The notes under the pieces: model-generated | Told to the model about the DNA's origin: nothing | What the model saw: only the letters and a program-made list of their open reading frames with translations | Databases searched by the model: none | Made by a program: the position numbers and the translations under genes | Shown: piece after piece, positions 1 through 15,742 of the stretch | Layout: each line of letters opens with the position of its first letter | Numbering within the stretch: position 1 is the first letter of the stretch | Source of the DNA: Escherichia phage vB_EcoS_MM-1 | Sequence record: PV577657 | DNA: 64,000 nt | Direction: 5' to 3' (one strand)

Positions 1-126
1 TACCAACGTAGCCCCCATGGGTACGAAGATATTACTTGGAGTATTAAACAATATCTTAAAGATGTATACTCTAGTTTTTCTGATGAAGACCTAGAAACAG
101 TTGCAGTGGAGTTTAATAATGACTAA
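1..126 (+). CDS. 3' end of an upstream gene (partial), hypothetical protein
   Basis: Open frame runs from the window edge to TAA at 124-126; no start visible in window. Confidence 0.4.
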   Translation, partial: YQRSPHGYEDITWSIKQYLKDVYSSFSDEDLETVAVEFNND

Positions 127-325
127 GAATGTGAAACACCTTAAATATCGCTTAATTTACAACGGACGTATGGAAACGGAAGACCTGGCCAAATTAGCTA
201 TTAACTCTAATGAGGTTACAGTGCGTGCGCTGGCAATTGAAAAGTTGCGTGCCTCTTATGAAAATCGTGTTATGGAACTAGAGGAGAAACTTTATGGCAT
301 TCTCGAAGCCGATGCTACCAGATAA
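119..325 (+). CDS. hypothetical small protein
   Basis: ATG at 119 preceded by GGAG at 107-110; ORF track frame (track start is TTG at 101). Confidence 0.5.
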   Translation: MTKNVKHLKYRLIYNGRMETEDLAKLAINSNEVTVRALAIEKLRASYENRVMELEEKLYGILEADATR

Positions 326-515
326 GGGTTTAAACGCCGCTTTGGAAAACGCATTAATGCAGCACTGGGAAACTGGCTATAAGGATGGTGTTGAATCCTG
401 CGCTACTATGCTAGAAGTTATTGCTAATACCTTAATGGAGAAAGGCAATAAAGAATTAGCTGAGCTATTAGACAGTATTGGGCAAAACTTCAGAGAACAG
501 GTGAAAAATGCGTAG
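294..515 (+). CDS. hypothetical small protein
   Basis: ATG at 294 with GAGGAG at 281-286; overlaps neighbours in the tight packing typical of phage operons. Confidence 0.55.
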   Translation: MAFSKPMLPDKGLNAALENALMQHWETGYKDGVESCATMLEVIANTLMEKGNKELAELLDSIGQNFREQVKNA

Positions 516-1344
516 ATTAATTATTATTAGCGGTGCAGGTTTGAGTGTTGAAAGTGGTGTACGAGCTTTTCGTACTGATACTGCTAGTGGTAAAGCATTG
601 TGGGATGACTATGATCTAGAAGAAGTATGTAATATTCATGCCTTTCGTGGTAATTTTTATCATAAAACCCACATGTTTTACAACAAGCGTCGTGAAGAGC
701 TAAAAACTGTTGAACCCAATCTTGCGCATTTGCGTATTGGTGAATGGTATAAACAATATCCAGGTCAAGTAGTAAACTTGACTACCAACGTTGATGACCT
801 TATTGAGCGTGCTGGCGTCCCACATAGTGACATTCTGCACATTCACGGATATTTAAAAGAGGTTGTTGTAGCTGATAGCTACAATAGTAGCAATAAACGG
901 ATTATTGATGTAGGATACAATTCTATTGATCCAGATGATTATAAATGGGTTAAACCTAATGTAATCTTCTTTGGAGAGCATGCTCCTGCATACGCAGAAA
1001 TGTATAATGTTTTTGATGGTATTACCAGTCAAGATATGATCATTGTGGTTGGTTGCTCTAACCAAGTAATTAACTTCTACTGGGAATTATTTCCTGTTCT
1101 TAATTTGACTGCTGCGAAACTTATGGTTGTTAACTACTATGATAGTGCCCTCGCAGCGGAACCGGTCTATCAAGGTATGACTCGTAGTGAGATGTACCAG
1201 CTGGAGGAACGCGGTATCCCTTACTGGAGTAAAGGTGCGGTAGATGCTTTCAGTGACCCTGATTTTATTGCTCGTGTAGAAGCTCATTTAGAGGGTAGAC
1301 CTTATGTGTCGAGAAGCAAGAGAAACAGGTATGTCCATAGTTAA
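508..1344 (+). CDS. Sir2-family (sirtuin-like) NAD-dependent protein, no zinc ribbon
   Basis: Sirtuin motifs in order: GAGLSVESGVRAFR (GAGIS-ESGIP-FR), LTTNVDDL..AG (TQNID-L), HIHG catalytic-His motif, PNVIFFGE; no CxxC pairs. Confidence 0.8.
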   Translation: MRRLIIISGAGLSVESGVRAFRTDTASGKALWDDYDLEEVCNIHAFRGNFYHKTHMFYNKRREELKTVEPNLAHLRIGEWYKQYPGQVVNLTTNVDDLIERAGVPHSDILHIHGYLKEVVVADSYNSSNKRIIDVGYNSIDPDDYKWVKPNVIFFGEHAPAYAEMYNVFDGITSQDMIIVVGCSNQVINFYWELFPVLNLTAAKLMVVNYYDSALAAEPVYQGMTRSEMYQLEERGIPYWSKGAVDAFSDPDFIARVEAHLEGRPYVSRSKRNRYVHS

Positions 1345-1513
1345 ATCTGTATATACACATCCCGACGATATATTTGTATGGGCAGATGGTAGTTGGTGCT
1401 ATCGCTGTGAGCTGTGGGAGATGGACTATAAATCCGATGACTATGGTGTTATATATGTTGATACGGTTGAGTATGATACGTTCTTAGAAAGGAACAAAAA
1501 TGGAAATAAGTAA
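1331..1513 (+). CDS. hypothetical small Cys-containing protein (start uncertain, alternative 1304)
   Basis: ORF track 1304..1513; internal ATG at 1331 sits after the Sir2 coding overlap. Confidence 0.4.
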   Translation: MSIVKSVYTHPDDIFVWADGSWCYRCELWEMDYKSDDYGVIYVDTVEYDTFLERNKNGNK

Positions 1514-2006
1514 TACTCCAATTATTTTTCTAGATATTGATGGGGTGCTCAATTCGAGCATCTCCCACCATCATGCACCTGATGACGAAAAGATTTTCTT
1601 TGGAAGTGACTGGGTTTTCAAGCCGCTTCTCAAGGCTTTTCAGGACTTTATTCGTCCTTCTCCAATAATGATTGTTGGAGTATCATCTTGGTTCTCTGTC
1701 AGAAATGAGATGGAGAACGTTCAGATTATGACCGGATTAGGTCTTATCGATCGTTTTCTTGGTACAACGGATTTTACTGGGGGTGGGTTATCTAGGGGTA
1801 ATTCTGTCCTTCGCTTCGTTGAAAAGCATAAGCTCAAACATTGGTGTGTTCTGGATGACGCTGGTGCTATGATGTATCAGTATCCAACGGTTATAGTCAA
1901 CGGTAGAACTGGAATAAATCTTCAAGATTTAATGGCTGTTAGCTATATGTTAGAGTTTAGTCCAGATCTTGAAATGTGTAAATCCTTACAACAATTTAAG
2001 GTGTAA
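1500..2006 (+). CDS. HAD-superfamily-like hydrolase/phosphatase
   Basis: N-terminal IIFLDIDGVLN matches HAD motif I (DxDGV). Confidence 0.6.
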   Translation: MEISNTPIIFLDIDGVLNSSISHHHAPDDEKIFFGSDWVFKPLLKAFQDFIRPSPIMIVGVSSWFSVRNEMENVQIMTGLGLIDRFLGTTDFTGGGLSRGNSVLRFVEKHKLKHWCVLDDAGAMMYQYPTVIVNGRTGINLQDLMAVSYMLEFSPDLEMCKSLQQFKV

Positions 2007-2008
2007 AT

Positions 2009-2437
2009 ATGTTCAATAATGTATTCTCTAAAGAAGCTAACCCAATTTTGGTTAACTTTTGGCGTACTCTCCCAGCTAGCCTGTATAATGAGGCTATTAA
2101 CTCCTTGAAAATATGGTGTGAGAATAACGAAATCTCCTTTGCTTTTAAAGATGATATTGATGAGGCCCCCTGTATTGGTTTAATTGTGCAGGTAGAGGAT
2201 GGTCTTGAAGAGATTGTCGGCTGGAAAGAGTTAGATGAAATGGGCTTAATTTTTGCGTTAAACTATAAGCTGTTTATGCCTGCTAAGCATCGCCTAGTTG
2301 TTAACTATAAAACTAGTGAATCTCCTGGTTTTCAGGTTAATGAACGTTATGGTTGGTCTTACTCACCGGAAGAAGTAAATGAGGGGATTCAGAAACTTCG
2401 ACGTTTCGGGTATATGATCCCAGGTTTAACTGCTTAA
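2009..2437 (+). CDS. hypothetical protein, paralog A of a tandem duplicated pair
   Basis: RBS AAGGTG before ATG; shares the block CIG..(W)(K/N)ELDEMGLI(F/V)ALN..LF.P with the downstream ORF. Confidence 0.65.
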   Translation: MFNNVFSKEANPILVNFWRTLPASLYNEAINSLKIWCENNEISFAFKDDIDEAPCIGLIVQVEDGLEEIVGWKELDEMGLIFALNYKLFMPAKHRLVVNYKTSESPGFQVNERYGWSYSPEEVNEGIQKLRRFGYMIPGLTA

Positions 2438-2446
2438 GGAGGCAGA

Positions 2447-2838
2447 ATGGAACAAGTATATTGGCGTCAGATTGACCCTAGTTTGGTGAAACGTGCGGAG
2501 AAGCTGCTACAACGTTGGTTGTGGGTAAGACAAGCCTCCTTCACTTTTCCGAGCAGCAAACAGATGATCCCTGTATTGGTGTTTTCCTATCCGGCTACGC
2601 CGGGGAATGGGAATTGGATTGGAATGAATTGTCTGCTATGGGTTTAATTGTTGCCCTAAATTTCTCTTTGTTCCATCCACGTGGGTTGGCCATACGTCGT
2701 GTGCCGGGTGATGGTTGTTCGCCCCATTTTTTACAGGTGGAAGATGATATTTGGGAGTACACTCCAGATATTCTCGCAGAAGCTAAAGAACAATTAAATC
2801 GTGTTGGGATTTATGTTCCAGGCCTAAATGATGAATGA
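2447..2838 (+). pseudogene. paralog B of the duplicated pair, interrupted by an apparent 1-nt frameshift (frame of 2447 switches to frame of 2515 near 2545-2551)
   Basis: Strong RBS AAGGAGG at 2434-2440 and ATG at 2447; the conserved domain continues in the 2515..2838 frame; adding one T to the T4 run at 2545-2548 restores ...SFTF-SEQQTDDPCIG, aligning with paralog A ISFAFKDDIDEAPCIG. Confidence 0.5.
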
Positions 2839-2906
2839 TTTTTATTAGCTGAAATTTGTAATCCGGGCTATTAGTGCTCGGATTATTACATAATCTTTTC
2901 AGTCGA

Positions 2907-2960
2907 TTGACAGTCAAAATAAATTGTCGTTGACAATTTGGATGGATTATGTAATAATAT
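2907..2960 (+). promoter_or_regulatory. promoter with two operator-like inverted repeats upstream of the HNH gene
   Basis: TTGACaGTCAA (2907-2917) and ATTGTC-gtt-GACAAT (2923-2937); -35 TTGACA 2931-2936, -10 TAATAT 2955-2960. Confidence 0.45.
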
Positions 2961-2977
2961 ATGTATTGGAGGTGAGG

Positions 2978-3430
2978 ATGTCATTCACACAGCAAGAACT
3001 TTTAGATAACTTCCGATATGAAGATGGTAAGTTATTTAGAACTACAGGAAGAAATGCAGGGAAAGAATGTTGTGTTTCTACAGGTAACGGATATTATCGT
3101 ATATCTCTAGGGAATAGGACTATGCTTCGGCATAGAGCAATATTTTTAATGCATCATGGATACTTACCTGATTTAGTAGATCATGTGAATACTATAAAAG
3201 GTGATGATCGTATTGAAAATCTTAGAGAGCAGACAGTATCCGGTAATCTAAGAAATATCAAATATAAGAAAGGAATGCATGTTTACCCTTCTGGTAGTAA
3301 GAACTGGCAAGTGGTATTTACTATTAACCGTAAACGTATAGTTAAAGGAACATATGACAACTATGAGGTTGCATGTTCTATGGCCAAGATGTTTAGAGGT
3401 CAATTATACGGTAGGGAATCAATCCAGTAA
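2978..3430 (+). CDS. HNH homing endonuclease
   Basis: RBS GGAGGTGAGG then ATG at 2978; motif HRAIFLMHHGYLPDLVDHVN...DDRIENL typical of phage HNH endonucleases. Confidence 0.8.
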   Translation: MSFTQQELLDNFRYEDGKLFRTTGRNAGKECCVSTGNGYYRISLGNRTMLRHRAIFLMHHGYLPDLVDHVNTIKGDDRIENLREQTVSGNLRNIKYKKGMHVYPSGSKNWQVVFTINRKRIVKGTYDNYEVACSMAKMFRGQLYGRESIQ

Positions 3431-3438
3431 AATTTCAT

Positions 3439-3468
3439 TTGCAAGGGAGTATTATTTTATAGTATAAT
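3439..3468 (+). promoter_or_regulatory. sigma70-type early promoter (T5-like)
   Basis: TTGCAA, 18-nt spacer, TATAAT (3463-3468), then ATTCCCATAAATGAGAGA, resembling the PN25 downstream box. Confidence 0.5.
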
Positions 3469-3498
3469 ATTCCCATAAATGAGAGACATTAGTAAAAA

Positions 3499-3528
3499 TT
3501 GATTTTGCTAATTTTTCTTGTTTACAAT
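3499..3528 (+). promoter_or_regulatory. possible second promoter
   Basis: TTGATT, 18-nt spacer, TACAAT. Confidence 0.35.
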
Positions 3529-3534
3529 CCGCGA

Positions 3535-3953
3535 TACGGAACAGTTAGGCTGCCCCATTAAGGGTTGTTTTAACTGTTACGTGTTAGTTTTTAAACAAAT
3601 AGTTAATAGAATACTTAGCGATCTACATCCCGTAGGAACCCTGGTAAGGCCTCGAAGCAACCTAGTGTGAGGTGGTTGTGAAGTGAGACGGGAAGAGTGA
3701 AAAACTCTGAGAAGTGATGACGTAAGGTATACTGCATCTAGTATGAGCTAGTACATGAAGCATTAGGTGAGCAAATCTGGCTTAGCGGCCATCCTCAAGG
3801 ATTTGTGCGGTATAGTGAAGCGGCAGTGTAGCGTGAAAGGGGAAGTTGCCACCCCCCTTCAGTATTTGCGATTAATTTGTTGAGAAATTGACAGTAACAG
3901 TTGTTCTATTCTTTCTGAATAGTCCTAAAGAAAACTTATTTCATTTCCAACAC
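3535..3953 (+). ncRNA. candidate structured untranslated leader or ncRNA (no ORF of 60 aa or more on either strand)
   Basis: About 420 nt between promoters and the RBS at 3954; purine/G-rich composition unlike the AT-rich flanks; hairpins GAGTgaaaaACTC, ATCCTcaAGGAT and GGGG-N11-CCCC. Confidence 0.3.
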
Positions 3954-3965
3954 AGGAGTATTGTT

Positions 3966-6752
3966 GTGTTCTCAATCCTACAAGGTCATGCAGGATTTCA
4001 TCGCGATTTAGCCACAGGCATTTGGCGAGAAGTTAAAGCAGAAGACTATCTTTTTGCTAAAAGATTTTCCTCAAAGCATCCTGAAGGTAAACCAGCTTCA
4101 ATGCCCTTCAAGTTTGATGTAATTGATGAAGTTGATCCTCAAACCCTAGTAGAAATGCTCCCTCTTATGAGACGTTTAACGTCTGACCCTCATATCGTTG
4201 CGGTACGAGGTCGATGTCTTGCACCCAAAAATAATGTGCGGCGTAAGAAGGGCAACTTTAATGTATCTAACCCAAGTCATATAATTGCAATGGACGTGGA
4301 TGGTATTGTAGATACAGGTGGTTGTAACAAGTTTGATCTTGTTGGCATGGCTCGACATATTATTAGAATGTTAAATAGTATTAGTGAGGATATGTTTCCT
4401 CTTGATGCAGGGTTTATTGCTCATGCATCGTCTTCGGCTGGGCTAAAACCAGGTATCCGAATGCACTTAATACTAGAATCTAATGTTAAAGTAACTCAGG
4501 GTCAAATCAAATTCTTATTTACATCTATCAATGAAAGTAGTAGACAAAAGTATGGCTTTGATATTGCCGACTTAGCTTATTACTCTTCCGTACAGCTCCA
4601 TTATTTTGCAGATCCGTTATTTACCGATGGTATAGTAGATCCGTTTAAGGCGGAGGGTGCTTCACGTCTGGTATTTGTTAAGGGTTCTAAAGTAAACTTA
4701 CCTAATAATCTGGTTGACTATGAAACAACTAGAGGTGAGTTTAAGGAGGAGTTTTACTCTTTACTCGATCAAATTAAAGGTAAAAAAGCTGCCTCCGATA
4801 AAGTAGAGGAAACTATCAGCGAACTAGAAGAAGCTGAGGATGGAGTGTATCTACGTATCATACCTAAACTCTATCACAGAGCTTTAGAGGATGGTGTTGA
4901 TTTTGCATGGCTAGAAAAAGAAATCCGTCCAGCCTTATCAGAATATATTGCAACCAAAGATAATAGTCGTAATATTCAAGATTACTTTAATAACGGTCGT
5001 AAACAGGCTCTGAAAGCATTTGTTAATAATTCTAAACGCGATATACCTGATGTTTTAAAAGGTATTCCACTTAAAAAGCTAGAAACTAACTCTCTAGAAA
5101 CTGATAACTTCTTGAAATTAAATACTGTACCACCAGAAGGTTATATGACTTTTGTAAAAGCAAGTCTAGGTACAGGTAAAACTACGGCGGTTGTGCGTTG
5201 GTTAGATTCAGGAGTTATTAAAGGTAATTTCTTAGCAATTACCAATACTCGAGCACTGGTATCTTCAAATGCTAAGAAATTTAGTGCAGGACAATATGAT
5301 AAGTCTGTAGATATGCTTAATTTTAAGCGTGGTGCTATTGACCGTATGTCCACAACTATTCACTCTTTGCATAAGTTCAAGAGTTTTATTGGTCAAATCG
5401 ATGCAATCTTTATAGATGAATGTGATGCTGTAATGAATGACCTATTATTCGCCCCGGTTGTTAAACAACGTCGTGAATGTATTCAGGTTCTTCGGGATAT
5501 TCTTGCAACTGCAAAAATCATTATATTATCTGATGGGGATATTAGTGCAGAAACAATTGAAGCATATGGTTCTTTAATTGAGTTTGATAAACCGGTTGCA
5601 TTTTATAATCATCACCGAAAAATGCTATCAAAAGCTCATGCCTACGAGTTCCCTGATGAATCCAGTATTTGGGTTGCACTTCAGACTTCTCTAGAGATGG
5701 GTGAGAAATCTATCCTAGTATCTGACTGTGGGCCGGATGAACTGAATGAGAAGGGCATGGCGTTGCGTCGTAATACGGGTGCGTTAGTTAAGGAAATCCA
5801 CTCAAACTCTACGTCTGATGTAGATATTCGACGTATTCTGGATTACACAACTAATGAGTTAATTGACCAACAAATTGATTGCTTATTATGTAGTCCATCC
5901 GTAACGAGTGGTGTTGACTTCAACTATTTTGATAACGTATTCGTTATTACTAGAACCAGTAACCAAGCGCCAAACATGCGTTTTCAAGCAATCAGGCGCG
6001 ACCGTGGTGCTCAGAACATTTATTATTTTATTGATAAATCTACGAGTGGATTCTCCGCAGGCTCTGAACAATATAATATTGATGAAGGTTGGCTGGAGTT
6101 AGCACAGCAATTATACGCACGTCGTAGGGAGCTGGAGTCTAGGAACTATACTAGTACTTTACGTTATTACTTGCTTGATCAGGGTGCAACTATTGATATT
6201 TTCAGTGAAAGCTGGGGAACTATCGAAGGTGCAGGTAAAGAGTATACAGAAGAGCGAATCAAAGCCATTTTGTATTCAACTCCTGATTATTGTGCTCCAC
6301 GCCATGCAGATGCATATGAAGCTAAACTACTTCTTGTTCGCTATTATCATCTTGAGTCTATTAAAGATGTAACAGTTGAGCATGTTGAGCAATACATTAA
6401 GGATAAACCGAATGATCGAGCGGCATTCTTCCATAAAATGCACGAGATGTTCTGGGAAGATATTAAGAAGTGTTCAAATGTCACTATCAAACCATTCATA
6501 GAAGCTCTGAAAGGCAAGAAGAAAGATTTCTTCCTTAAAACAGGTCAGAGTGCTAACCCAAAATATGCCAGAATGTATCTTGGTATGATGGGTATTGGCA
6601 AGGATATGAACACGGAGAATATTGTAGACTGGTACAGAACTTATTGTAAAATCGAGTGTATGCCAATTCCTTTCAAATTCATGACAGAGGAAGAGAAGGC
6701 TATGGCAGAAGAAGTACTGTCCGAACTTGGAGCAACTAATGAAGACGCATAA
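3966..6752 (+). CDS. large replication protein: AEP-primase-like N-domain fused to a P-loop helicase domain (possibly the replication-origin-binding type protein of T5-like phages)
   Basis: In-frame GTG at 3966 with AGGAG at 3954-3958 (track start TTG 3888 is less likely); DxD motif IIAMDVDG, GIRMHLIL, Walker A ASLGTGKTT, Walker B IFIDECD. Confidence 0.6.
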   Translation: MFSILQGHAGFHRDLATGIWREVKAEDYLFAKRFSSKHPEGKPASMPFKFDVIDEVDPQTLVEMLPLMRRLTSDPHIVAVRGRCLAPKNNVRRKKGNFNVSNPSHIIAMDVDGIVDTGGCNKFDLVGMARHIIRMLNSISEDMFPLDAGFIAHASSSAGLKPGIRMHLILESNVKVTQGQIKFLFTSINESSRQKYGFDIADLAYYSSVQLHYFADPLFTDGIVDPFKAEGASRLVFVKGSKVNLPNNLVDYETTRGEFKEEFYSLLDQIKGKKAASDKVEETISELEEAEDGVYLRIIPKLYHRALEDGVDFAWLEKEIRPALSEYIATKDNSRNIQDYFNNGRKQALKAFVNNSKRDIPDVLKGIPLKKLETNSLETDNFLKLNTVPPEGYMTFVKASLGTGKTTAVVRWLDSGVIKGNFLAITNTRALVSSNAKKFSAGQYDKSVDMLNFKRGAIDRMSTTIHSLHKFKSFIGQIDAIFIDECDAVMNDLLFAPVVKQRRECIQVLRDILATAKIIILSDGDISAETIEAYGSLIEFDKPVAFYNHHRKMLSKAHAYEFPDESSIWVALQTSLEMGEKSILVSDCGPDELNEKGMALRRNTGALVKEIHSNSTSDVDIRRILDYTTNELIDQQIDCLLCSPSVTSGVDFNYFDNVFVITRTSNQAPNMRFQAIRRDRGAQNIYYFIDKSTSGFSAGSEQYNIDEGWLELAQQLYARRRELESRNYTSTLRYYLLDQGATIDIFSESWGTIEGAGKEYTEERIKAILYSTPDYCAPRHADAYEAKLLLVRYYHLESIKDVTVEHVEQYIKDKPNDRAAFFHKMHEMFWEDIKKCSNVTIKPFIEALKGKKKDFFLKTGQSANPKYARMYLGMMGIGKDMNTENIVDWYRTYCKIECMPIPFKFMTEEEKAMAEEVLSELGATNEDA

Positions 6753-14325: not shown

Positions 14326-14855
14326 TAACACAGGAAAGGCTAAAAGAGTTATTTGATTACTCCCCAGGAACTGGGGAGTTTACTAGAAAAGTATCTAGAG
14401 GTAATCAGAAAGCTGGTAGTATAGCTGGTTCTTTAAGAAAAGATGATTATATATGTATATGGGTAGATGGAAAGCCTTACTATGCGCATCAACTAGCTTT
14501 TCTCTATATGGAAGGTTATTTACCTGAAGAAGTAGACCATATAAACCGTATACGAAGTGATAATCGTTGGGTTAACCTTAAAGATTCTTCTCACCAAGAG
14601 AATAGCAGGAATAAAGCAGCTAAAAGTAAATCAGGGTATATAGGAGTTAGTTGGAATAAACAAAGGCAAAAATGGCAAGTTCAACTAAGAGATACCAATA
14701 AAAAGAAAATATTCGGTGGATATTTTGAGTACCAGAATTTAGAATCAGCAGTAGATAAGATTAATAATCTACGATTACAATTTCATGGGGAAAATGCTAT
14801 TCAAGAAATATTCGACCCGTCTAATTATCCTGCATTAGAGGAGATAAATTCATGA
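14322..14855 (+). CDS. HNH homing endonuclease
   Basis: YAHQLAFLYMEGYLPEEVDHINRIRSDNRWVNL; overlaps both helicase end and primase start. Confidence 0.8.
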   Translation: MITQERLKELFDYSPGTGEFTRKVSRGNQKAGSIAGSLRKDDYICIWVDGKPYYAHQLAFLYMEGYLPEEVDHINRIRSDNRWVNLKDSSHQENSRNKAAKSKSGYIGVSWNKQRQKWQVQLRDTNKKKIFGGYFEYQNLESAVDKINNLRLQFHGENAIQEIFDPSNYPALEEINS

Positions 14856-15742
14856 GTAGAATAACAGAATTACTTGATCTTAAGGGAATTGAGTATAAAG
14901 ATACTGGTGGAGATATTTTAATCTGTTGCTTAAATCCATATCATGATGATAAACACCCAAGTTTGCGTATTGATCCTGAAACCGGGATTATGCACTGCTT
15001 GAGTTGCGGTTTTGGCAAAGGTATACCTAGTATTTATCATTATTTTAATGAGACTCAATATAGACAATCTCCAAGACTATCCCAAGTACGTAAAAAGATT
15101 TCAGAGATTAGAAATGGATCTACGAATCTTGCAATCCCAGAATCTGCCTGCCTTTTCGAAGGTGATTTCCGAGGTATAAGTTCTAAGACCTTGAAGAAAT
15201 ATTTTGCTTTCCAACACCAAGAGAACTGGGAAGGCAGAATTGTATTCCCAATCACAGATGCTGTTGGACGCAATATCCTATTTTTGGGTCGTTCTATAAA
15301 CAGTTCTGCCCCTCCTAAATACTTAGTAAAACCAAAACAGGTTTCACCACCAATTTTCCCTGTACGATATAATACTCCAGTTCTTATTCTAGTTGAAGGT
15401 ATCTTTGATATGCTGAACCTAGAGGATAGTGGTATAGACTATGCTTCTTGCTGCTTTGGTACACATCAGTTTACTTCAGACAACATTGCAGATAAGTTCA
15501 GTCCGTACATTATTGCTGGTGTTAAAGTTGTTGTTATCTTACTAGATAATGATGCTTCTGGTAATAAAGCTGCACAAGCACTGGCCAAGCTAATTCGTAC
15601 AAAAACGCGTTTAACACCTGTAGTTGCTAACTTTCTTCTGCCTGAAGGTAAAGACCCAGGTGACTTAAATAAAGAAGAAATTGATATGTTAGCAAAACGT
15701 ATTGAAATTTTAGTTGCTGAATCGCTTAAAGATTTGGTATAA
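14852..15742 (+). CDS. DnaG-like DNA primase (zinc-binding domain plus Toprim)
   Basis: CCLNPYHDDKHPSLRIDPETGIMHCLSCGFGK zinc-binding motif; Toprim-like LVEGIFD and LLDNDASG. Confidence 0.85.
   Translation: MSRITELLDLKGIEYKDTGGDILICCLNPYHDDKHPSLRIDPETGIMHCLSCGFGKGIPSIYHYFNETQYRQSPRLSQVRKKISEIRNGSTNLAIPESACLFEGDFRGISSKTLKKYFAFQHQENWEGRIVFPITDAVGRNILFLGRSINSSAPPKYLVKPKQVSPPIFPVRYNTPVLILVEGIFDMLNLEDSGIDYASCCFGTHQFTSDNIADKFSPYIIAGVKVVVILLDNDASGNKAAQALAKLIRTKTRLTPVVANFLLPEGKDPGDLNKEEIDMLAKRIEILVAESLKDLV

What the first reader, a model, noticed from the sequence alone, without database searches (positions are those of the whole stretch)
508..2006. Phage-encoded Sir2-family protein lacking the zinc ribbon, followed by a HAD-like phosphatase
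ORF 508..1344 has the sirtuin motif set (GAGLSVESGVRAFR, TTNVDDL..AG, HIHG, PNVIFFGE) but no CxxC zinc-binding pairs. In bacteria, Sir2 domains act both as deacylases and as NAD-depleting effectors of anti-phage systems (Thoeris ThsA, DSR, Sir2-HerA). A free-standing Sir2 in a virulent phage early region, next to a HAD-type hydrolase, suggests manipulation of host NAD or ADP-ribose metabolism or of protein acylation. Whether it is NADase, deacylase or ADP-ribosyltransferase cannot be told from sequence.
Basis: partly seen in the sequence, partly recalled or inferred. Interest (0 to 1): 0.6.

Follow-up and report, generated by a model that had tools for sequence, protein, structure and literature searches.

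The report
Zinc-less phage sirtuin with HAD phosphatase
A T5-like phage carries a real CobB-like sirtuin that has lost its zinc-binding cysteines, next to a small HAD phosphatase; this gene pair is already annotated in hundreds of phages and was described in 2022 as a predicted RNA-repair module, but nobody has tested what it does.

Summary
ORF 508..1344 is a sirtuin (Pfam SIR2, E 8e-25). It keeps every NAD-binding and catalytic motif and has no zinc-ribbon cysteines. None of 120 homologues has a CxxC pair. ORF 1500..2006 is a HAD phosphatase (HAD_SAK_2, E 4e-20) with all four catalytic motifs.

The window is a Tequintavirus, 100% identical over 3.5 kb to Escherichia phage vB_EcoS_MM-2. By sequence and predicted fold the sirtuin is closest to E. 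coli CobB and SIRT5 (class III deacylases). It keeps their Y-x-x-R anion-binding motif. It does not resemble ThsA, DSR or Sir2-HerA (no PADLOC hit).

The family is phage-only and widespread: at least 839 phage records hold a near full-length copy. Iyer et al. 2022 already described this sirtuin + "Swiss-army-knife" HAD neighbourhood in phage SP15, a close relative. They predicted Tpt1/KptA-like removal of RNA 2'-phosphates.

My context survey supports an RNA-repair link only in part. I found no experimental work. Phage DT57C has deleted both genes, so the module is dispensable.

Verdict: real and already known; the function is an open question of moderate interest.

The parts
508..1344 (+). 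Zinc-less class-III-like sirtuin (278 aa), the T5 'Sir2-like protein' orthologue. Catalytic His113. NAD motifs G9-A-G-x-S13, F21-R22, T93-N94-V-D96, G182-C-S184, N209. Anion-binding Y58-x-x-R61.
   Evidence: Pfam SIR2 E 8.1e-25. phrog_2162 E 1.4e-121. CobB 1s5p E 1.9e-17 with the single sequence and 2e-30 with the family profile. AF2 pLDDT 88.4; Foldseek top hits are CobB with TM 0.83-0.85. Invariant residues across 60-120 homologues.
1304..1513 (+). Small conserved ORF (69 aa from ATG 1304; 60 aa from ATG 1331) that overlaps both neighbours. It carries a W-x-D/N-G-S/T-W-C-Y motif and its function is unknown. It is a frequent downstream partner of the sirtuin gene.
   Evidence: phrog_5116 E 9.5e-30, with the match starting at residue 15. 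It follows the sirtuin in T5-like loci and also in L034/35, L041-44 and L054/55. 489 phage records hold it. It is absent from L008 and L010-12, where the HAD gene overlaps the sirtuin gene directly.
1500..2006 (+). Minimal-cap HAD phosphatase (168 aa) of the HAD_SAK_2 family ('Swiss-army-knife' RNA-repair HAD). Catalytic D12/D14, S62/S63, R99, D119/D120.
2009..2437 (+). DUF7415 protein (T5.106 homologue). It follows the module in all T5-like loci; whether it belongs to the module functionally is unproven.
   Evidence: Pfam DUF7415 E 2.9e-35. Synteny in L003-L025, L033, L041-44 and L053-55.
2447..2838 (+). Second DUF7415 paralogue (T5.107 homologue), split here by a 1-nt deletion at about 2551/2552 into ORFs 2447..2647 and 2515..2838. 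A syntenic neighbour; membership in the module is unproven.
   Evidence: phrog_2502 E 3.4e-44. 36% identity to the first paralogue. The alignment with T5 and DT57C shows CCG-AGC against CCGGAGC.

Best explanation
Shown: ORF 508..1344 encodes a folded sirtuin of the CobB/SIRT5 lineage that very probably binds NAD+. All zinc-ribbon cysteines are gone, although the small beta-module is still predicted. It belongs to a phage-only clade. In T5-like phages it lies, co-directionally and with overlapping reading frames, beside a 60-69-aa ORF and a minimal-cap HAD phosphatase of the RNA-repair-associated HAD_SAK_2 family. The cassette can be lost, as in DT57C. Inferred (the proposal of Iyer et al. 2022, which I adopt as most likely): the sirtuin uses NAD+ in Tpt1/KptA-like chemistry on RNA. 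A 2'-phosphate (or terminal phosphate) left on RNA cut by a metal-independent nuclease would attack C1'' of NAD+ and release nicotinamide. His113 would then activate the ribose O2'' to resolve the phospho-ADP-ribosyl adduct into a clean 2'-OH and ADP-ribose cyclic phosphate. This mirrors the two steps of sirtuin deacylation, with phosphate in place of the acyl oxygen. The invariant Y58-x-x-R61(R62), which binds the succinyl carboxylate in SIRT5 and CobB, would hold the phosphate. The HAD enzyme would remove the remaining terminal phosphate or dephosphorylate the ADP-ribose product. Together they would heal tRNA or mRNA ends damaged by host anticodon nucleases or toxins. The stated confidence refers to this functional model. 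That the protein is a zinc-less class-III-type sirtuin is about 0.95 certain.
For: Fold and family. The active site is intact and invariant in 120 homologues. Y58/R61 align with CobB Y-N-A-R. The HAD is HAD_SAK_2 with all motifs. Its fold is closest to capless HADs that act on macromolecules (MDP-1, Scp1/Fcp1, UBLCP1). Orthologues 50-63% identical sit inside Metallophos..Rnl1-cREC-AAA_33 kinase-Sir2-ligase clusters in about 145-kb enterobacterial phages. More distant homologues lie near Rnl1 (L061), Thg1 (L060) or HAD_SAK_2 (L058, L033). In a survey of 80 Rnl1 loci, cREC was found in 10, all from phages that also carry this sirtuin. Published prediction for exactly this neighbourhood: PMC9503650. 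Some Tpt1 enzymes heal terminal 2'/3'-phosphates without any ligase step (PMC6573784), which makes a ligase-free version in T5 chemically plausible. T5-like phages carry about 23 tRNA genes, so tRNA integrity matters to them.
Against: There is no experimental evidence at all. No sirtuin has been shown to accept a phosphate nucleophile. The T5-like genome has no detectable Rnl1, cREC or AAA_33 kinase (tblastn), so there is no phage-encoded sealing step. The Rnl1/kinase/Metallophos cassette has no sirtuin within 6 kb in 69 of 80 phage loci, and KptA never takes the sirtuin's place (0 of 80). In some phages the sirtuin lies about 30 kb from the cassette (L038/L040 against L073/L072). Several sirtuin loci have no RNA-repair neighbour (L036, L045, L048, L049, L052, L059). 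Much of the adjacency may reflect shared ancestry of related phages rather than independent recurrence. The closest characterised relatives are all protein lysine deacylases.
Confidence: 0.4

Rival explanations
1. A CobB-like protein lysine deacylase (deacetylase or desuccinylase). The phage brings its own class III sirtuin to strip acyl groups from host or phage proteins during early infection, such as acetyl-phosphate- or succinyl-CoA-modified enzymes, RNA polymerase or ligases. The HAD neighbour would then be functionally unrelated, or would dephosphorylate proteins.
For: The nearest relatives by sequence and fold are the deacylases CobB, Af1/Af2-Sir2 and SIRT5. The catalytic His, the FGE loop and the SIRT5/CobB Y-x-x-R succinyl-binding motif are invariant. 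Capless HADs related to the neighbour include protein phosphatases. In the 145-kb phages the sirtuin gene abuts an ATP-dependent ligase gene. A Sir2-ligase/Ku link is reported in mycobacterial NHEJ (title of PMC3102665).
Against: The Zn ribbon, which helps form the peptide cleft in the solved deacylase sirtuins that rank highest, has lost all its cysteines. The TQNID Gln is Thr in every family member, and the GTS..VxP segment is GCS..VINF. The recurring neighbours are RNA-end enzymes, not protein-modification enzymes. The host already supplies CobB.
Confidence: 0.3
2. A mono-ADP-ribosyltransferase that modifies host protein, DNA or RNA as part of host takeover or superinfection exclusion. This would resemble SirTM or SIRT4/6-type activity, or the T4 Alt/Mod logic achieved with a different fold.
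For: Sirtuin chemistry allows ADP-ribosyl transfer (general knowledge, reviewed in PMC9503650). The gene is expressed with early genes, when host takeover happens. The active-site changes (Q->T, loss of Zn) suggest a non-canonical acceptor.
Against: No Macro domain partner lies in the neighbourhood, unlike SirTM systems. The catalytic His that drives the second, O2''-dependent step is invariant, which pure ADP-ribosyl transfer does not need. No similarity to toxin-type or defence-type sirtuins.
Confidence: 0.12
3. A plain NADase, or a manipulator of the host NAD+/ADP-ribose pool. It would deplete NAD+ to shut down the host or exclude competing phages. The HAD enzyme would process the ADP-ribose-phosphate or NMN products.
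For: Some homologues lie near NAD salvage genes: NAMPT in L059, and PRPS-like + NAPRTase and NADAR in Ro1-like phages. This shows a link to NAD economy.
Against: No similarity to the NADase-type SIR2 of ThsA, DSR or Sir2-HerA (0 PADLOC hits; no SIR2_2 hit). T5-like phages depend on NAD+ for their own NAD-dependent DNA ligase (my knowledge of T5, not tested here). Salvage genes nearby are equally expected for any enzyme that consumes NAD+. The HAD family is annotated for RNA ends, and its fold is the capless, macromolecule-type HAD.
Confidence: 0.08

Closest known systems
Phage sirtuin + 'Swiss-army-knife' HAD neighbourhood of Escherichia phage SP15 (type 3 sirtuin-centred RNA-repair system; Iyer, Burroughs, Anantharaman, Aravind, Viruses 2022, PMC9503650)
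   Same: The same genes in the same order. SP15 matches window 1-3500 at 93.8% nucleotide identity. The paper names the sirtuin-HAD pairing explicitly and proposes KptA-like 2'-phosphate removal.
   Different: Nothing essential differs. This report adds four points. The loss of the Zn ribbon holds across all 120 homologues examined; a search of the paper's text found no mention of a zinc ribbon. The SIRT5/CobB Y-x-x-R motif is retained. The small ORF between the two genes is a conserved partner. The link to Rnl1 cassettes is only partial (11 of 80 loci).
E. coli CobB / human SIRT5 / Archaeoglobus Sir2-Af1 (class III sirtuin lysine deacylases)
   Same: Best sequence matches (1s5p E 1.9e-17; family profile 2e-30) and best fold matches (TM 0.83-0.85 normalised to CobB). 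Shared GAGxS, FR, NxD, HG, FGE and GxS motifs and the Y-x-x-R anion pocket.
   Different: No zinc-binding cysteines. Thr replaces the Gln of TQNID. GCS..VINF replaces GTS..VYPA. There is a 4-residue insertion in the cofactor-binding loop and an extra C-terminal helical extension of about 60 residues. Distribution is phage-only and the gene context is RNA repair.
Tpt1/KptA RNA 2'-phosphotransferase
   Same: The proposed chemistry only. A phosphate attacks NAD+ C1'' and releases nicotinamide, and the ribose O2'' then resolves the adduct (PMC6573784). Both are associated with RNA ligase and end-healing enzymes.
   Different: The fold is unrelated (ART-type against Rossmann sirtuin), so this protein is not a member of that family. 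The activity is untested for any sirtuin. KptA was not found replacing the sirtuin in any of 80 phage Rnl1 loci.
Defence-associated SIR2 NADases (ThsA, DSR1/2, Sir2-HerA, SPARSA)
   Same: Both have a Sir2-type Rossmann NAD-binding core. They also lack a canonical zinc ribbon (my knowledge, not tested here).
   Different: No PADLOC model matches at E<=1 and there is no SIR2_2 match. There is no fused sensor domain and no HerA, TIR or pAgo partner. None of them appears among the top 50-60 PDB matches by fold or by profile.
T4 polynucleotide kinase-phosphatase (HAD-type 3'-phosphatase domain) and capless HADs (MDP-1, Scp1/Fcp1)

Membership tests
Sirtuin / SIR2 (Pfam PF02146) | Profile match above the curated cut-off across the whole catalytic core | tested here: met
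   88.2 bits against a cut-off of 24, E 8.1e-25, profile positions 1-178 of 180.
Sirtuin / SIR2 (Pfam PF02146) | NAD-binding motifs (GAGxS, FR, xNxD, GxS, N) and the catalytic His of the HG motif | tested here: met
   G9-A10-G11-S13, F21-R22, N94-D96, H113-G114, G182-S184 and N209 are invariant in 60-120 homologues and align with CobB.
Sirtuin / SIR2 (Pfam PF02146) | Cys4 zinc ribbon (two CxxC pairs) in the small domain | tested here: not met
   No Cys between residues 114 and 150, and only C41 and C183 in the protein. 0 of 120 homologues has a CxxC. AF2 still predicts a three-stranded beta-module there, with pLDDT of 90 or more.
Sirtuin / SIR2 (Pfam PF02146) | Sirtuin fold | tested here: met
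   Foldseek against the PDB: CobB 6rxm/1s5p at E 1e-17 with TM 0.83-0.85 (target-normalised); 288 hits at E<=1e-3.
Class III sirtuins (CobB/SIRT5) | Y-x-x-R motif that binds the acyl carboxylate | tested here: met
   Y58-N-K-R61 aligns with CobB Y-N-A-R and is invariant in the family. The role of the motif in SIRT5/CobB is from my knowledge of the literature.
Class III sirtuins (CobB/SIRT5) | NAD+-dependent lysine deacylase activity | not testable with these tools
   Needs enzyme assays. The active-site Gln of TQNID is Thr93 in all members, so the activity cannot be assumed.
Defence-associated SIR2 NADases (ThsA, DSR, Sir2-HerA) | Match to SIR2_2 or PADLOC defence models, and a fused or adjacent sensor or partner (SLOG, HerA, TIR, pAgo) | tested here: not met
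   0 PADLOC families at E<=1. Only PF02146 was reported by Pfam at E<=1. The neighbours are a small ORF, a HAD, DUF7415 proteins and an HNH endonuclease.
SirTM (Macro-linked ADP-ribosylating sirtuins) | Adjacent Macro-domain gene | tested here: not met
   No Macro domain in the five flanking ORFs scanned or in the annotated region.
Tpt1/KptA RNA 2'-phosphotransferase | KptA/Tpt1 (ART-type) fold and sequence family | tested here: not met
   The protein is a Rossmann-type sirtuin. Only a functional analogy is proposed.
Tpt1/KptA RNA 2'-phosphotransferase | NAD+-dependent removal of RNA 2'-PO4 | not testable with these tools
   Needs a biochemical assay with 2'-PO4 RNA substrates.
HAD superfamily, HAD_SAK_2 (PF18143) | Profile match above the cut-off, and the four HAD motifs | tested here: met
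   73 bits against a cut-off of 27.5, E 4e-20. D12 invariant and D14 nearly invariant, S62/S63, R99, D119/D120.
HAD superfamily, HAD_SAK_2 (PF18143) | HAD Rossmannoid fold | tested here: met
Phage sirtuin-centred RNA-repair neighbourhoods (Iyer et al. 2022), type 3 | A sirtuin of the phage clade adjacent to a stand-alone SAK-type HAD | tested here: met
   The window arrangement. The same arrangement occurs in 27 T5-like loci (L003-L025, L041-L044) and in L033. The prototype SP15 is hit H5 at 93.8% identity.
Phage sirtuin-centred RNA-repair neighbourhoods (Iyer et al. 2022), type 3 | An RNA ligase or other sealing enzyme available in the same genome | tested here: not met
   tblastn with Ro1 Rnl1, cREC, AAA_33 kinase and ATP-dependent ligase found nothing at E<=0.01 in the whole T5-like genome. 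This search has single-sequence sensitivity only.

The most novel reading that the evidence does not exclude
The phage sirtuin is the first Rossmann/sirtuin-fold enzyme that takes a nucleic-acid phosphate as nucleophile, making it a non-homologous analogue of Tpt1/KptA. With the capless HAD and the small partner ORF, it would form a ligase-independent RNA end-healing device. That device would let T5-like phages restore tRNA or mRNA ends cut by host anticodon nucleases or toxin RNases, and so would act as a counter-defence module.
Probability: 0.3. Interest if true: 0.7.

Novelty: already known. Interest (0 to 1): 0.3.

Why it matters
If the published prediction is right, sirtuin chemistry would extend from acyl-lysine to RNA phosphates. 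Phages would then have a second, unrelated solution to the Tpt1 reaction, which bears on how T5-like phages cope with tRNA-cleaving defences. If the protein is instead a CobB-like deacylase, it would be a case of a virulent phage editing the host acylome. Either result would be new biochemistry. The gene, its family, its neighbour and the leading hypothesis are all already in databases and in print, so this window adds no discovery. What it adds are sharper test points: the Zn-less small domain, the invariant Y-x-x-R, the Thr replacing Gln, the conserved small partner ORF, and natural deletion mutants such as DT57C that could serve as controls.

Tried and rejected
1. Defence-type Sir2. PADLOC gave no hit for the sirtuin, the HAD or the small ORF, so I rejected it.

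2. A solved homologue of the HAD by sequence. None was found with the single sequence or with the profile. Only the fold search was informative.

3. Non-orthologous displacement test. I asked whether KptA occupies the sirtuin's slot in phage Rnl1 cassettes that lack the sirtuin. In 80 loci, KptA was found in none and the sirtuin in 11. This gives no support from displacement. It also shows that the Rnl1/kinase/Metallophos cassette occurs without a nearby sirtuin in most loci. The KptA search used one E. coli sequence, so distant phage KptA proteins could have been missed.

4. An RNA ligase, cREC or kinase in the T5-like genome. None was found by tblastn.

5. Whether the T5-like 'phosphoesterase' matches the Ro1 cassette Metallophos. 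The match is only 23% identity at E 2e-6, which shows the same superfamily and nothing more.

6. The phage phosphatases that counter RES-type NAD+ cleavage (bioRxiv 2026.01.28.702374). These are Macro-domain enzymes, unrelated to this HAD.

7. Remote homologues of the small ORF. There are 220 representatives, mostly stand-alone proteins of 50-60 aa. The large multi-repeat hits look like compositional or repeat artefacts. Two are fused to HTH_31 or MazE/AbrB DNA-binding domains. No function could be assigned.

8. The 'nicotinamide mononucleotide transporter' annotated next to the sirtuin in phage PSa2. It is a 64-aa protein and looks like a mis-annotation.

9. Promoter and terminator scan of 1..4200. 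The counts do not exceed the shuffled controls, and no terminator lies inside the cassette. This is consistent with co-transcription but is not evidence for it.

10. Residue-level inspection of the model's active-site pocket was not possible, because model coordinates are not exposed to the scripting tool.
Full report
WHAT IS THERE. The window is from a T5-like phage. Bases 1-3500 are 100% identical to Escherichia phage vB_EcoS_MM-2 (Tequintavirus, PV577658.1), and 446 phage records match this stretch. In that record the region lies between nrdD and the origin-binding/helicase gene. All genes there are on the + strand, in the early-gene block.

It matches Pfam SIR2 over the whole catalytic core (E 8.1e-25, 88 bits against a cut-off of 24) and phrog_2162 (E 1.4e-121). 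It has two cysteines (C41, C183), and neither is where a sirtuin zinc ribbon should be.

ORF 1500..2006 (168 aa) matches Pfam HAD_SAK_2, 'HAD domain in Swiss Army Knife RNA repair proteins' (E 4e-20). Between the two lies a 69-aa ORF (1304..1513) that overlaps both. Its PHROG match starts at residue 15, so ATG 1331 is the likelier start. Two DUF7415 paralogues and an HNH endonuclease follow.

THE SIRTUIN. By sequence, the closest solved structures are E. coli CobB (1s5p, E 1.9e-17), Archaeoglobus Sir2-Af1/Af2 and SIRT5. With a profile of 60 family members, CobB rises to E 2e-30. No defence-type sirtuin appears among the 60 best hits.

An AlphaFold2 model built on that alignment is confident (pLDDT 88.4, pTM 0.86). 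Its best Foldseek matches in the PDB are again CobB (E 1e-17, TM 0.83-0.85), Af1 and SIRT5. PADLOC has no model that matches at E<=1. The protein is therefore a class-III-type sirtuin, not a ThsA/DSR/Sir2-HerA-type NADase.

Across 120 homologues (50-97% identity, all on phage-sized contigs) the following are invariant or nearly so: G9-A-G-x-S13, S16-G17, F21-R22, N94-x-D96, H113-G114, K149-P150, F154-F155-x-E157, G182-x-S184 and N209. None of the 120 has a CxxC pair. The model still predicts a three-stranded beta-module at 114-152, with pLDDT of 90 or more. So the zinc is gone but the small domain is not.

Three further points come from the alignments with CobB.
- Y58-N-K-R61 aligns with CobB Y-N-A-R. 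This is the motif that binds the succinyl or malonyl carboxylate in SIRT5 and CobB (its role is from my knowledge of the literature). It is invariant in the family.
- The Gln of the TQNID motif is Thr93 in every member.
- GTS..VYPA is replaced by GCS..VINF.

The enzyme thus looks competent to bind NAD+ and an anionic group, with a remodelled acceptor site.

DISTRIBUTION AND PRIOR KNOWLEDGE. tblastn finds the sirtuin in at least 1000 phage records, 839 of them near full-length. These are mostly T5-like phages and 135-150-kb Escherichia, Salmonella and Klebsiella phages, plus jumbo phages. The gene is usually already annotated 'Sir2-like'. The HAD is in 498 records and the small ORF in 489.

Iyer, Burroughs, Anantharaman and Aravind (Viruses 2022, PMC9503650) describe a distinct phage sirtuin clade with three neighbourhood types. 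[quoted passage not shown] They propose that the sirtuin acts like KptA to remove RNA 2'-phosphates. SP15 matches this window at 93.8% identity.

Four literature searches found no experimental study of any member. The finding is therefore already known as a computational observation, and the function is still untested.

MY OWN CONTEXT TEST. I examined 59 viral loci that encode the sirtuin.
- The T5-like loci have Sir2-(small ORF)-HAD-DUF7415-DUF7415. In four of them the small ORF is missing and the HAD gene overlaps the sirtuin gene by 19 nt.
- Orthologues 50-63% identical, in phages of about 145 kb, sit in Metallophos..Rnl1-cREC-AAA_33 kinase-Sir2-ATP-ligase clusters. NARP1-like PRPS and NAPRTase genes lie upstream and NADAR downstream.
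- More distant homologues lie near Rnl1 (L061), Thg1 (L060), HAD_SAK_2 (L058, L033) or NAMPT (L059).
- Several groups have no recognisable RNA-repair neighbour (L036, L045, L048, L049, L052).

I then turned the question round and took 80 phage loci that encode Rnl1. The sirtuin is within 6 kb in only 11 of them. E. coli KptA-like proteins are found in none. The kinase and Metallophos partners are nearly universal.

cREC was found in 10 of the 80 loci, all from phages that also carry the sirtuin. In two of these the sirtuin lies about 30 kb away (L072/L073 are on the same contigs as L040/L038).

The sirtuin is therefore an optional addition to a heal-and-seal cassette that usually occurs without it. 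It tracks with cREC. The linkage is real but partial, and phage relatedness confounds it.

The T5-like genome has no detectable Rnl1, cREC or AAA_33 kinase. It does carry about 23 tRNA genes.

DISPENSABILITY. Phage DT57C has a 273-bp 'defective sir2'. It is a chimera of sirtuin residues 171-216 and HAD residues 128-168. Two deletions have removed the sirtuin core, the small ORF and most of the HAD. PSa2 has a split sirtuin gene. The module is accessory, and in DT57C its parts were lost together.

HOW IT MOST LIKELY WORKS. Sirtuin deacylation and the Tpt1 reaction share their logic. An oxygen nucleophile attacks NAD+ at C1'' and nicotinamide leaves. The ribose O2'' then attacks the adduct. In sirtuins, the catalytic His activates that O2''. 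The Tpt1 steps are described in PMC6573784.

This protein has an invariant His113, an invariant anion-binding Y-x-x-R and a remodelled small domain. Its HAD neighbour belongs to a family defined by RNA-repair contexts. Given these features, I adopt the published model as the most likely one: NAD+-dependent removal of a 2'-phosphate (or terminal phosphate) from damaged RNA. The HAD would clear the remaining terminal phosphate or the ADP-ribose phosphate product.

Some Tpt1 enzymes heal terminal 2'/3'-phosphates without a ligation step. That makes the ligase-free T5 version conceivable.

I put this model at about 0.4. Its steps are inferred; none is shown.

The main rival is a CobB-like lysine deacylase, at about 0.3. 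Every characterised close relative has that activity, and it uses the same Y-x-x-R motif. Against it stand the loss of the zinc module, the Q-to-T change and the gene context. ADP-ribosyl transfer to a macromolecule (about 0.12) and plain NAD+ hydrolysis (about 0.08) remain possible.

VERDICT. The gene pair is real and correctly spotted. It is already annotated in hundreds of genomes and already interpreted in the literature. The interest lies in the untested biochemistry, not in the finding itself.

Noticed in passing
window 1500..2006; PV577658.1 CDS0139: GenBank and pharokka label the HAD phosphatase 'Sir2 NAD-dependent deacetylase'. The cause is phrog_18062, a 92-residue family labelled Sir2 that matches HAD residues 77-168 (E 3.8e-57). 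It appears to have been seeded by DT57C-like Sir2-HAD deletion chimeras. The wrong label recurs in many T5-like records.
   Followed up: yes
L063 (Escherichia phage DT57C) 2480..2752: The 'defective sir2' gene is a fusion of sirtuin residues 171-216 and HAD residues 128-168. It arose from two deletions that correspond to window 318-1000 and 1144-1897. It is a natural null for the whole cassette. SHSML-45 and SelmaRatti also show truncated HAD matches.
   Followed up: partly
window 1304..1513: The small ORF (phrog_5116) has a W-x-D/N-G-S/T-W-C-Y motif. It follows the sirtuin gene in several phage groups. It has 220 remote relatives among 1.8 billion representatives, mostly proteins of 50-60 aa. 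Two are fused to HTH_31 or MazE/AbrB DNA-binding domains. Its function is unknown; it may be a partner or regulator.
   Followed up: partly
window 2447..2838 (indel at about 2551/2552): The T5.107 homologue (second DUF7415 paralogue) carries a 1-nt deletion relative to T5 and DT57C (CCG-AGC against CCGGAGC). The deletion splits it into two ORFs, which are annotated as two separate hypothetical proteins in the GenBank record. This could be a pseudogene, a sequencing error or a frameshift site.
   Followed up: partly
window 2924..3430: An HNH_3 endonuclease (E 2.9e-11) lies between the DUF7415 genes and the origin-binding protein gene. Several close relatives align to this stretch in two pieces, which suggests a mobile homing-endonuclease insertion.
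   Followed up: no
L002 (Raoultella phage Ro1) 1..2209 and 14608..15114: The 145-kb phages that place the sirtuin in an Rnl1-cREC-kinase cluster also carry a PRPS-like + NAPRTase pair about 6 kb upstream and a NADAR gene about 6 kb downstream. The pair resembles the NARP1 NAD+ reconstitution pathway. NAD-consuming and NAD-rebuilding genes thus lie in one region.
   Followed up: no
L064 (Escherichia phage PSa2) 2807..3815: The sirtuin gene is split into two CDSs (a frameshift). The 64-aa ORF upstream is annotated 'nicotinamide mononucleotide transporter', which is implausible for a protein of that size.
   Followed up: no
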